Below are positions 36,001 through 39,000 of a DNA stretch of 64,000 bases, piece after piece. Position 1 is the first letter of the stretch. Each line of letters opens with the position of its first letter. The stretch lies in the NCBI RefSeq assembly GCF_024223415.1, contig NZ_CP100500.1; one strand, 5' to 3'. A program made the position numbers. This stretch comes from Escherichia coli (GTDB taxonomy: Bacteria > Pseudomonadota > Gammaproteobacteria > Enterobacterales > Enterobacteriaceae).

Positions 36001-39000
36001 GCGCCTTTCAGCAGCTGCATTTATCAGGTGAAAACCACCGGGATGACGGATGCGTTGGTTATAGTCGGCGAACTCTGGCAGCACAGCTTCAATGTCGTTG
36101 CGAATGCGATCATAATCTTCCACCAGATACTCCCAGGCTACCACGCTCTGGGGTAGTGCTGCCTGCGCGATTCCCGCGACCACTGCACACTCTGATTTCA
36201 GCATTACACCGGCGGGTTTTAACACGCCACGCGAGGCATGAATCATCGACATTGAATCCTCAACGGTTACCGCCTGCGCACCGCTTTTTTGCATGTCAAT
36301 CTCGCTACGTCCCAGAACCGGCAGAATATAGCTATGCCGTGCGGTCAGCAGATGAGAGCGGTTAAGCTTAGTGGCTACGTGTACCGCCAGATCTAATTGC
36401 GTTAACGGTACAGCGCTCGCTTCCCGATCTGGCATTGCCAGTGCAAAGTTGCCCCCCATGCAGATCAATGCTCGAGCCTGCCCTGTACATATTGCTTGCA
36501 TGCTGGCAATTGCAGCATGTCCAGGTGCTTGAGGTGGTGTGAAGCCATAGCGCTCACCCAGGCGAGCCAGAAACTCTGCAGACGGTTTCTCGGTGATACC
36601 GACGGTTCGGTCGCCCTGTACATTAGAGTGGCCACGTAGTGGGCAGATACCCGCACCAGGCTTGCCAATGTTACCTTTCATCAACAGCAGATTGACCAGT
36701 TGCTGTACATTCTGGGTACCATGTTCGTGCTGAGTGATCCCCATTCCGTAACAGATAATGGTGCGTTCGGCAGCGGCATATGCATCAGCCAGTTCGGCGA
36801 TTTGTGTCTGACTTAGTCCAGAAATACGTTCGATATCTTTCCACTCGGAATTGAGAACGTCACGGCGTAGCTCGTCAAAGCCGACGGTATGCGTTTGAAT
36901 AAATTCGTCATCAAGCAATGAGGGCCGACCTGCGGCACTTGCAGCATCATCGCGCTCAATTAACAGGCGCATCATCCCCTTGAGCAACGCCATATCGCCA
37001 CCAATGCGCACGTTGTAGTAGGCACTGGCCAACTGAGTCTCAGAGTTCGTCAGCATTTCAAACGGGTTTTGCGGTGCGGTAAATCGCTCCAGGCCACGTT
37101 CCTGTAGAGGATTGATGGCGATCATTTTCGCTCCCCGTTTCACTAAAGCGCGCAACGAAGTCAGCATGCGAGGGTGGTTTGTACCAGGGTTATGCCCAAT
37201 GCAAATGACTAAATCGCACTTCTCAAAGTCTTCCAGCAACACGGTCCCTTTACCTACACCGATACTCGCTGCCAAACCCACGCTTGTCGGTTCATGGCAC
37301 ATGTTGGAGCAGTCGGGAAAGTTATTGCTCCCGTATTCACGGGCAAAAAGCTGATAAAGAAAGGCAGCTTCATTGGAAGTGCGGCCCGAAGTATAGAATT
37401 CAACCTGATTGGGATCACTATAGCTTTGAAGGCGTGCGCCAATTTCATCGAAAGCTTGTTGCCAGCTTAATGGCTTGTAACAGTCGCTGACGGCATCATA
37501 TTTCAAAGGCTGAGTGAGTCGCCCCGCAGCCTCAAGCTCGTGGTCTCCCCAGGTAAGTAATGATTGAACCGTATTCTCAGCAAAGAAAGAGGCGTTTACC
37601 TGCTTATCCGTGACTTCCCAGGCGATTGCTTTTGCGCCGTTTTCACAAATGTCGAATGACGCACTGTGCTTAGGATCTGGCCATGCACAACCCGGACAGT
37701 CAAAGCCCTATGGCTTATTCATGTCAAACATGGCAATAACATCCTGGCGTATATCCATCTGCTTACGTACTGCATTCGCTACGGATTTAACAGCACCCCA
37801 ACCACCGGCAGCTCCCTGGTAGGATTCAATTTTTTTCTTCATCTACTTATCCTGTGTGGAAATGAATTATTAGGATTTGTAATAGCGATGATGCACAGTA
37901 CATACAAAGGGATTATCGCCAACATGGATATATAAGAGTAGGGGACTACTCTCTTTCTATTTTTAATCTATTATCGTTAAACAATAGATTAAATACGATA
38001 AGGTAAGCATCATCTCTCATAGTGTTTAAATTAACATATTTTTTAATATAAAAAATAAGACTCTGGCTTCAATTGTGCGCGGATTTTCTTACAGGTGTAG
38101 GATAATAGCCTTCACAAAATAATTATCCGCGCAATTTTCGTGAATGGAGCGCATAGACCAATGTCAAAATCACAATTATTCATAGATAAAAGTGACACCA
38201 ATGACTGACTGGACGGTTCCGGCTGAAACTTTGTTTCCTGTTTGTCCATAGGTTGCGCTTAAACCCAGAGGTACTTTGCTTTTATTTACTGTCCCCAGGG
38301 AGATATTTTCTCCCGTAGCCAGTATTTTTCCATTACGCATCAGAGAGACACCCACTCCCGATGCTTTTGTTGCATCAGGTGCTGTGTTAGCAAACACTTG
38401 TCGGGCACTGTCAGTGGTGGCACCCGAAAGATAAAATGAGAGCTTTTGTTCGCTTGAGCAATATACGCCAAGGGGTATTTCTGCGCTTCCAGGAAAGTCC
38501 GGGAGATTCACGGTGACATTACGACTATCAACAGTGCAGCCGCCTGTTGGCATAACAACACTGTTATTTGAAATAATATTCCACGTAAAATTACGAGGAT
38601 TTCCGCTTCCTAACGTGGCAATTTTATACATATGAATACGGGCAATAGCTTCCCCGGCTTTTATGACAACTCCACCGGCCGCCCCGACTGGGGTAATATA
38701 GAGTTTTAACGGTAATGGCATCGGTGTCTTATCACCAATATCCAATACGTTGGTATTTGTCGTCAACGGGAAGGGGTAGGTCACACTATTCCAGTACAGC
38801 GATCCTTTATATGACTGTAGGGAGCCTGCGAAAGCTGAGCCTTGTACCAGGTTTATATGATCAGTATCGTACCAGCCGCCGTAATCATTCCAGCAACTTA
38901 TATGCTGAGACAAGTCTACAACCAGATTCTGTCCCGGTTGTATTACAGGGTCGAGATTAACATAAACAGAGGTTGTACCTGCTCCAATACTTGACCCGCC

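What the first reader, a model, noticed from the sequence alone, without database searches (positions are those of the whole stretch)
38071..38135. EvgA-box-like palindrome nested inside a larger inverted repeat upstream of ydeP, with a second copy upstream of safA
TTCTTACA-gg-TGTAGG (38086..38103) and TTCTTACA-gc-TGTAGG (35427..35447) are near-identical palindromes upstream of the two EvgA-activated transcription units (ydeP and safA-ydeO). The ydeP copy is flanked by a perfect 9 bp inverted repeat tgcgcggat (38076..38084) / atccgcgca (38124..38132), which could form a cruciform or RNA hairpin presenting the box in its loop, or act as a second protein site. It lies directly downstream of ydeQ.
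Basis: partly seen in the sequence, partly recalled or inferred. Interest (0 to 1): 0.35.

Follow-up and report, generated by a model that had tools for sequence, protein, structure and literature searches.

The report
Known EvgA operators; flanking repeat probably incidental
The two palindromes are the already-described binding sites of the acid-response regulator EvgA in front of ydeP and safA-ydeO, and the larger 9-bp inverted repeat around the ydeP site exists but shows no sign of working as a unit.

Summary
Both parts of the observation are in the sequence. The window is an E. coli ydeO-safA-ydeP-ydeQRS locus.

**The palindromes.** The two sites (38086-38103 and 35427-35444) each match TTCYTACA-N2-TGTARGAA with one mismatch. 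They are the known EvgA operators of ydeP and safA-ydeO. The same motif sits at emrK/evgA, frc and yfdX in K-12.

**The outer repeat.** It is perfect: TGCGCGGAT 38076-38084 and ATCCGCGCA 38125-38133, with a 40-nt spacer. I found no evidence that it works as a unit:
- None of five other EvgA boxes has a flanking repeat.
- There is no U-tract, no Rfam match and no covariation.
- The two arm substitutions seen in divergent lineages are one-sided.
- The arms are not more conserved than the rest of the spacer (16/18 against a 73% background, p = 0.10).

**What the inner arm is.** It belongs to a roughly 85-bp promoter module that ydeP and safA share colinearly (52/85 identical, z = 7.2). The module includes a weak EvgA-like site exactly 22 bp downstream of the box, as in BvgA-type promoters. 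The outer arm has no counterpart at safA.

**Verdict.** This is known biology plus a probably incidental repeat, and the interest is low.

The parts
38086..38103 (-). Primary EvgA operator of the ydeP promoter. On the gene-sense strand it reads ATCCTACA-CC-TGTAAGAA. Its centre is about -74.5 from the inferred transcription start at 38020.
   Evidence: It has one mismatch to TTCYTACANNTGTARGAA. 17 of 18 positions are invariant across three Escherichia lineages. The literature says ydeP is directly EvgA-regulated and that an EvgA site is found at all direct targets (PMC7174508; PMC4283999).
35427..35444 (-). Primary EvgA operator of the safA-ydeO promoter, in the ydeP-safA spacer. It lies 112-129 nt upstream of the safA ATG.
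   Evidence: It has one mismatch to the consensus. It sits in the same register as the ydeP box in a colinear promoter alignment.
38076..38084 (.). Promoter-proximal arm of the outer inverted repeat (TGCGCGGAT on the plus strand, ATCCGCGCA in gene sense), at about -56 to -64.
   Evidence: The arm was located. It corresponds to CTCCGCTCA at the safA promoter, and the core T.CGC.CA is invariant in both promoters and in lineage L003. The 30-mer around it is identical in 5107 of 5323 E. coli records, and the two variants I looked at change bases outside the arm.
38125..38133 (.). Distal arm of the outer inverted repeat (ATCCGCGCA on the plus strand), at about -105 to -113 and 43 nt downstream of the ydeQ stop codon.
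   Evidence: The arm was located. It has no counterpart at safA or at other EvgA boxes. It carries one uncompensated change in the L059/L079 lineage (TTACGCGGAT in sense). It is intact in L003, although 12 nt are inserted next to it.
38064..38081 (-). Inferred secondary, weak EvgA-like site (sense CGCGCACA-AT-TGAAGCCA), exactly 22 bp promoter-proximal of the primary box. It overlaps the proximal arm.
   Evidence: It matches 9 of 16 consensus positions, which is the local maximum among offsets 18-24; the safA promoter scores 8 of 16 at the same offset. Only 1.5% of the window's 18-mers reach 9. The geometry matches BvgA promoters (PMC7250471). This is inference only; binding was not tested.
38028..38036 (-). 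Extended -10 element TGtTAATTT of the ydeP promoter. The start is inferred at about 38020-38021.
   Evidence: It aligns with TGtTATATT (35369-35377) of the safA promoter. A start at 38020 fits the 178-nt ydeP leader used in PMC11210196.
38045..38072 (-). Alternative sigma-70-like promoter TTGAAG-16-TATATT, which overlaps the conserved TGAAG block.
   Evidence: It is the only promoter-like match in the consensus scan. The same hexamers are listed for the ydeP-ydeQ spacer in the RpoD genomic SELEX paper, with H-NS marked (PMC3946193).
38176..39090 (-). ydeQ, the fimbrial adhesin gene and last gene of the ydeQRS-usher fimbrial operon. Its read-through RNA is the only transcript that could contain both arms.
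   Evidence: The ORF is. It is annotated as ydeQ in near-identical strain SCU-316 and in K-12. The precomputed Pfam domain for its homologues is PF09160.
35563..37842 (-). ydeP, the gene served by the 38086 box. In this strain it is interrupted by an amber codon at 37708-37710.

Best explanation
**The boxes.** The 18-bp palindromes are the primary operators at which phosphorylated EvgA, a NarL/FixJ-type response regulator, activates the ydeP and safA-ydeO promoters.

**The shared module.** The two promoters are colinear paralogues, from the box down through an extended -10 element to the transcription start. The box is centred near -74 in both. The promoter-proximal arm of the 'larger inverted repeat' is part of this shared module. 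Most likely it is the upstream half of a weak secondary EvgA site centred 22 bp downstream of the primary box, between that box and the -35 region. This mirrors how the EvgA homologue BvgA arrays its dimers on Bordetella promoters.

**The outer repeat.** The distal arm is specific to ydeP. Its complementarity to the proximal arm is most likely incidental: the 9-bp repeat with a 40-bp spacer does not act as a cruciform, a terminator or a box-presenting hairpin.

**Shown and inferred.** Shown here: the sequence matches, the regulon-wide motif, the promoter paralogy, the conservation pattern, and the absence of terminator features and of covariation. Inferred: the position of the transcription start, secondary EvgA binding, and the repeat having no function.
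For: **The boxes are EvgA operators.**
- Each box has one mismatch to the consensus.
- The same motif occurs at emrK/evgA, frc and yfdX in K-12: 4 matches against 0.24 expected.
- Papers state that EvgA binds inverted repeats at yfdX and yfdW (PMC3720670), that an EvgA site is present at all direct targets (PMC4283999), and that ydeP is directly and simply EvgA-regulated (PMC7174508).

**The two promoters are paralogous.**
- 52 of 85 positions are identical without gaps on the promoter-proximal side of the box. The z-score is 7.2, 0 of 100,000 shuffles reach this, and the next-best 85-mer in the window scores 39.
- Identity on the distal side of the box is only 23%.
- The blocks T.CGC.CA, TGAAG, AGTC.TATTT and TG.TA..TTAA are invariant in both promoters and in the divergent lineage L003.
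- The best EvgA-consensus match lies exactly at a +22 bp offset in both promoters, 9/16 and 8/16. BvgA dimers are spaced 22 bp apart, with the strong site furthest upstream (PMC7250471).

**The repeat does not behave as a unit.**
- No flanking repeat of 8 bp or more occurs at five other EvgA boxes.
- There is no terminator-like site on the ydeQ-sense strand and no Rfam hit.
- The RNAalifold covariation term is +1.1, and no pair has changes on both sides. The only two arm changes are one-sided: A.C in the L059 type and G.U in L003.
- Arm conservation of 16/18 against a 73% background gives p = 0.10.
- The region is single-copy in each genome.
Against: - The repeat is GC-rich (7 of 9) in a spacer of 33% GC, and the local shuffle p is about 0.017.
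- Both arms are identical in every E. coli genome I examined outside the rare L059-type lineage. The 30-mers around them are identical in 5107 of 5323 and 4429 of 5321 records, and the four variants I inspected change bases outside the arms.
- In L003 the spacer is only about 75% identical and has a 12-nt insertion beside the distal arm. The complementarity still persists, and on the ydeQ/ydeP-sense RNA it lengthens to 12 pairs with one G.U.
- The 91-nt region folds better than shuffles on both strands (z = -3.15 and -3.47).
- The secondary-site idea rests on a 9/16 match and on two promoters that are not independent of each other.
- I could not read the primary footprinting papers (Masuda and Church 2003; Itou et al. 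2009), so the extent of the EvgA footprint and the mapped start are not verified here.
Confidence: 0.62

Rival explanations
1. The two arms pair in RNA that reads through from the ydeQRS fimbrial operon. The resulting irregular stem-loop would act as a 3'-end barrier or stabiliser, or as a pause or insulator, limiting read-through into the ydeP promoter. The EvgA box lies in its loop only by position.
For: - The distal arm starts 43 nt after the ydeQ stop codon, and no canonical terminator follows ydeQ on that strand.
- The sense RNA folds with the 9-bp stem in the minimum-energy structure (-23.7 kcal/mol, z = -3.15).
- In L003 the single arm change gives G.U on the sense strand but A.C on the other strand, and the sense stem grows to 12 pairs despite a larger loop.
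- The neighbouring gene ydeP also ends with a U-tract-less 12-bp stem-loop (35519-35549).
Against: - The loop is 40-52 nt and there is no U-tract.
- There is no compensatory change in any lineage, and the L059/L079 lineage has an uncompensated A.C.
- The L003 fold is not better than shuffles (z = -1.85).
- The proximal arm's conservation is already explained by the promoter module it shares with safA, which has no partner arm.
- There is no Rfam family match.
Confidence: 0.17
2. The arms are two half-sites for another DNA-binding protein, or a distal auxiliary site for EvgA. Bound together they would loop about 49 bp of DNA around the EvgA box and modulate activation.
For: - Both arms are kept in three lineages.
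- The 12-nt insertion in L003 is close to one helical turn, so the arms stay roughly in phase (49 bp against 61 bp centre to centre).
- The 27-nt stretch around the distal arm is 21/27 invariant, while the sequence between it and the box is 10/21 invariant.
Against: - The distal stretch at 78% invariance is close to the 73% spacer background.
- The distal region scores 3/16 against the EvgA consensus.
- No other EvgA promoter has such arms.
- No candidate protein is known for TGCGCGGAT.
Confidence: 0.1
3. The repeat extrudes as a DNA cruciform under negative supercoiling and exposes the EvgA box as single-stranded loop DNA.
For: The arms are perfect and GC-rich, and the spacer is AT-rich. Single-stranded DNA folding uses the stem (-12.2 kcal/mol, z = -2.77).
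Against: - From general knowledge of cruciform energetics, extrusion needs short spacers. Forty unpaired base pairs per strand against a 9-bp stem is strongly unfavourable.
- EvgA-family helix-turn-helix proteins bind duplex DNA, so exposing the box as single strands would abolish binding.
- The spacer length is not conserved (40 nt against 52 nt).
Confidence: 0.02

Closest known systems
EvgA operator: the 18-bp inverted repeat TTCYTACA-N2-TGTARGAA at ydeP, safA(b1500)-ydeO, emrK/evgA, yfdW(frc) and yfdX. The source is Masuda and Church 2003, Mol Microbiol 48:699, cited from my own knowledge and as reference 15 of PMC3720670.
   Same: The sequence, the dyad structure, the position upstream of EvgA-activated genes, and the very genes named in the literature.
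   Different: Nothing for the boxes themselves. This strain's ydeP box ends in ...GGAT where K-12 has ...GGCT, and the spacer dinucleotide varies among strains (GG or AG).
BvgA-activated promoters of Bordetella (Pfha, Pptx). They have a strong inverted-repeat site furthest upstream and weaker dimer sites every 22 bp down to the -35 region (PMC7250471).
   Same: EvgA is the E. coli homologue of BvgA (own knowledge). The primary box lies far upstream, at about -74. A conserved block fills the gap down to the core promoter. The best secondary consensus match is at exactly +22 bp in both promoters.
   Different: Secondary binding of EvgA is not shown here. The match is weak (9/16 and 8/16), and there is room for only one extra dimer.
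Intrinsic terminators and 3' stabilising stem-loops at operon ends
   Same: A GC-rich inverted repeat shortly after the last gene of an operon.
   Different: The loop is 40 nt instead of 3-8 nt, and there is no U-tract. The 3' arm lies inside the next promoter's regulatory region.
Repeated extragenic palindromes and other dispersed small repeats of E. coli
   Same: A GC-rich imperfect palindrome in an intergenic spacer.
   Different: It is single-copy: the median is one place per genome and the maximum is two.

Membership tests
EvgA operator | An 18-bp dyad matching TTCYTACA-N2-TGTARGAA | tested here: met
   There is one mismatch at each of 38086-38103 and 35427-35444.
EvgA operator | Location upstream of a gene shown to be directly activated by EvgA | tested here: met
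   The boxes lie 244 nt upstream of the ydeP ATG and 112 nt upstream of the safA ATG. EvgA control of ydeP and ydeO is described in PMC11210196 and PMC7174508.
EvgA operator | Recurrence of the motif at the other members of the regulon | tested here: met
   There are 4 matches at emrK/evgA, frc and yfdX in K-12 against 0.24 expected.
EvgA operator | Physical binding of EvgA (footprint or ChIP) | not testable with these tools
   Binding is reported in the literature I could not open (Masuda and Church 2003; Itou et al. 2009, from my own knowledge). PMC3720670 and PMC4283999 refer to it.
Intrinsic (Rho-independent) terminator | A GC-rich stem with a short loop, followed by a U-tract | tested here: not met
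   No terminator-like site was found on the minus strand in 37800-38300. The loop is 40 nt, and the stem is followed by CAAUUGAAGCC.
Structured RNA element | Base pairs kept through compensatory changes in related sequences | tested here: not met
   No pair has changes on both sides, and the covariation term is +1.1. Only three lineages were available. There is no Rfam match.
Cruciform-forming inverted repeat | Arms separated by a short spacer | tested here: not met
   The spacer is 40 bp in E. coli and 52 bp in L003.
Dispersed repeat (REP or MITE-like) | Multiple copies per genome | tested here: not met
   The median is one place per genome across about 5320 genomes.
BvgA-type multi-dimer activator promoter | A strong dyad site furthest upstream, with weaker sites in 22-bp register reaching the -35 region | tested here: inconclusive
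   The local maximum of the consensus score falls at +22 bp in both promoters, at 9/16 and 8/16. The block there is conserved. Binding was not tested.

The most novel reading that the evidence does not exclude
The outer repeat is functional. It would be either a hairpin in read-through RNA from the fimbrial operon that insulates the acid-resistance promoter, or a pair of sites for an unknown factor that loops the EvgA operator. Either way it would link fimbrial-operon transcription or a second signal to ydeP induction. A milder novel reading is that the ydeP and safA promoters are one duplicated roughly 100-bp EvgA module carrying a BvgA-style secondary site.
Probability: 0.12. Interest if true: 0.4.

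Novelty: already known. Interest (0 to 1): 0.15.

Why it matters
The EvgA boxes are textbook parts of the E. coli acid-resistance cascade, so confirming them adds nothing new. If the outer repeat were functional, it would add a second control layer to the most strongly EvgA-induced promoter, but the evidence here points the other way.

The more useful by-product is that the ydeP and safA promoters are colinear paralogues, with a conserved block in 22-bp register with the operator. That gives a concrete, testable prediction: EvgA, like BvgA, may array more than one dimer on its promoters.

Tried and rejected
- **Repeat as general EvgA-site architecture.** Rejected. Five other boxes (safA, emrK/evgA, frc and two at yfdX) have no flanking repeat longer than 7 bp.
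- **Terminator of ydeQ.** Rejected on anatomy.
- **Known RNA family.** Nothing at E up to 1.
- **Alternative helix CCAUUCAC/GUGAAGG.** This helix, in the ydeQ 3' region, looked compensated between E. coli and L003. I rejected it because L058, L060, L072 and L059 carry uncompensated changes in it.
- **Wider conservation through YdeP homologues.** The genome scan gave one divergent Escherichia lineage (L003) and otherwise only unrelated contexts. Edwardsiella, at 85% protein identity, has a different upstream region with no box. Megablast with L003's spacer found no relatives among E. coli genomes.
- **More lineages through YdeQ homologues.** Homologues at 57-77% identity are not next to ydeP. 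Shorter E. coli YdeQ variants had ordinary spacers.
- **Metagenome scan.** I used a pattern that excludes the main E. coli lineage. It returned one contig, identical to the L059 type.
- **Primary EvgA motif papers.** They are not in the library.
- **Distal arm as an EvgA-like site.** It scores 3/16.

Full report
**What is there.**
The window carries the E. coli ydeO-safA-ydeP-ydeQRS-usher locus, all on the minus strand. The ORFs are ydeO 34282-35043, safA 35118-35315, ydeP 35563-37842 and ydeQ 38176-39090. An 801-nt stretch is 99.9% identical to strain SCU-316, where these genes are annotated, and K-12 has the same order.

The two palindromes are TTCTTACAGGTGTAGGAT at 38086-38103 and TTCTTACAGCTGTAGGCA at 35427-35444. 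Each has one mismatch to TTCYTACANNTGTARGAA. The outer repeat is perfect: TGCGCGGAT at 38076-38084 and ATCCGCGCA at 38125-38133, with 40 nt between the arms.

**The palindromes are the known EvgA operators.**
- The same motif occurs four times in the 18-kb K-12 evgAS/yfd region, between emrK and evgA, upstream of frc (yfdW) and twice upstream of yfdX. Only 0.24 matches are expected, and 0 of 200 shuffles reach four.
- The accessible literature says that EvgA binds inverted repeats at yfdX and yfdW (PMC3720670, citing Masuda and Church 2003).
- It also says that an EvgA binding site is found at all directly regulated genes (PMC4283999), and that the ydeP promoter is directly regulated by EvgA without complex input from other acid-resistance regulators (PMC7174508).
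- The original motif papers are not in the library. I cite them from my own knowledge.

This part of the finding is correct and already known.

**Is the outer repeat more than chance?** Only marginally.
- Shuffling the flanks of the box gives a bracketing perfect repeat of 9 bp or more in 331 of 20,000 trials. The window as a whole contains 66 perfect 9-mer inverted repeats with 3-60 nt loops.
- The 91-nt region folds somewhat better than shuffles on either strand (z = -3.15 and -3.47) and as single-stranded DNA (z = -2.77).
- There is no terminator-like site on the ydeQ/ydeP-sense strand, and the stem is followed by CAAUUGAAGCC.
- No Rfam family matches.
- The region is single-copy per genome.
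- None of the five other EvgA boxes examined has a flanking repeat longer than 7 bp.

**Comparative evidence.**
- *Within E. coli.* The 30-mers centred on the arms are identical in 5107 of 5323 records (proximal) and 4429 of 5321 records (distal). The four variants I fetched change bases outside the arms.
- *Lineage L059.* This rare lineage (strain 2013C-4282, about 17-19 records, plus metagenome contig L079) has an uncompensated G-to-A change in the distal arm. This is an A.C mismatch in sense RNA.
- *Lineage L003.* This Escherichia genome (SCPM-O-B-8794) is only about 75% identical in the spacer. It keeps the distal arm, has one transition in the proximal arm (G.U on the sense RNA, A.C on the other strand) and has 12 nt inserted beside the distal arm. 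Its sense-strand stem is 12 pairs long, but the fold is not better than shuffles.
- *Covariation.* RNAalifold on nine distinct sequences finds no pair with changes on both sides, and the covariation term is +1.1.
- *Conservation level.* Across the three lineages 73% of spacer columns are invariant. The arms are 16/18 invariant (p = 0.10) and the box 17/18 (p = 0.03).
- *Outside Escherichia.* Edwardsiella has the nearest ydeP (85% protein identity), in an unrelated context with no box.

The repeat is therefore retained within Escherichia, but not more strongly than its surroundings and without any signature of pairing.

**What the proximal arm is.**
Anchored on the box, the ydeP and safA promoters align without gaps from the box to beyond the transcription start. 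52 of 85 positions are identical (z = 7.2), 0 of 100,000 shuffles reach this, and the next-best 85-mer in the window scores 39. Identity distal of the box is 23%.

In a six-sequence alignment (both promoters, from the window, K-12 and L003), four blocks are invariant: T.CGC.CA (inside the proximal arm), TGAAG, AGTC.TATTT and the extended -10 element TG.TA..TTAA.

The extended -10 (TGtTAATTT, 38036-38028) puts the ydeP start near 38020. This fits the 178-nt leader used for ydeP in PMC11210196 and places both boxes near -74. An alternative sigma-70-like promoter, TTGAAG-16-TATATT (38072-38045), is the one listed for this spacer in an RpoD genomic SELEX study (PMC3946193). I could not decide between the two start sites.

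The proximal arm (ATCCGCGCA in sense) corresponds to CTCCGCTCA at safA, and safA has no partner arm upstream. The arm's conservation is therefore accounted for by the shared promoter module, not by pairing.

**Likely mechanism.**
EvgA~P binds the primary dyad. In both promoters the best further match to the EvgA consensus lies exactly 22 bp downstream. It is CGCGCACA-AT-TGAAGCCA (9/16) at ydeP and scores 8/16 at safA, and in both promoters it is the local maximum among offsets 18-24.

BvgA is the Bordetella homologue of EvgA. It binds as head-to-head dimers spaced 22 bp apart, with the strong site furthest upstream and the last site abutting the -35 region (PMC7250471). I therefore infer, without having shown it, that the conserved block that includes the proximal arm is a weak secondary EvgA site bridging the operator to RNA polymerase.

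The distal arm scores 3/16 against the EvgA consensus. It has no assigned role, and I regard its complementarity to the proximal arm as most likely incidental.

**Rivals.**
- A 3'-end hairpin for read-through RNA from the fimbrial operon remains possible (about 0.17). In its favour: it sits just after ydeQ, ydeQ has no other terminator, and the L003 change is a sense-strand G.U.
- A second-protein or looping site is less likely (about 0.1).
- A cruciform is very unlikely, given the 40-52 bp spacer.

**Verdict.**
Interest is low.

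Noticed in passing
window 37708-37710 (ydeP codon 45): ydeP carries an in-frame amber stop (TAG on the minus strand). The closest relative, SCU-316, has GAG (Glu) there. This is the only difference in 801 nt, so ydeP is a nonsense pseudogene in this strain even though its promoter is intact.
   Followed up: partly
window 38000-38103 versus 35341-35444: The ydeP and safA promoters are colinear paralogues from the EvgA box to the transcription start (52/85 identical, z = 7.2). 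They share an extended -10 element and the same spacing. I could not check whether this has been described.
   Followed up: yes
window 37962-37972 / 37983-37993 (ydeP 5' leader, about +28 to +59): An 11-bp perfect inverted repeat lies in the ydeP leader. The ST131 strain and three other genomes (L055, L073-L075) change 37989 and 37966 together (A-U to C-G in sense RNA), which is a compensatory pair. L056 has an uncompensated change.
   Followed up: partly
window 35519-35549: A 12-bp perfect stem with a 7-nt loop (TTCTTCTGCTGT/ACAGCAGAAGAA) lies 14 nt after the ydeP stop codon, upstream of the safA EvgA box. It has no U-tract by the scan. It is probably the ydeP 3'-end hairpin.
   Followed up: partly
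K-12 locus L061, downstream of the boxes at 15507 (frc) and 16501 (yfdX): The frc and yfdX promoters share CTCTCTGATT at the same offset (+23 to +32) from their EvgA boxes. ydeP, safA and emrK share AGTC(C/T)T at +24 to +29. This suggests a fixed-register element in EvgA promoters.
   Followed up: no
L002 (JARKOR010000108.1): A contig filed under a 'Candidatus Nanosynbacter' metagenome-assembled genome encodes a YdeP 100% identical to E. coli's and has both EvgA boxes. It is almost certainly E. coli contamination of that bin.
   Followed up: no
L058 (E. coli strain 165) and plasmid hit H60 (NZ_CP147132.1): In strain 165 an IS3-family element sits in ydeQ about 70 nt from its stop codon, leaving the spacer intact. 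Six plasmid places carry fragments of the ydeP-ydeQ spacer, for example 59 nt at 96.6% identity on a 92.6-kb plasmid.
   Followed up: no
window 37935-37952: The stem-loop AGAGTAG-GGGA-CTACTCT is followed by a T-rich run on the plus strand, antisense to the ydeP leader. It is the only terminator-like site in the scan, and the stem is largely conserved in L003.
   Followed up: no
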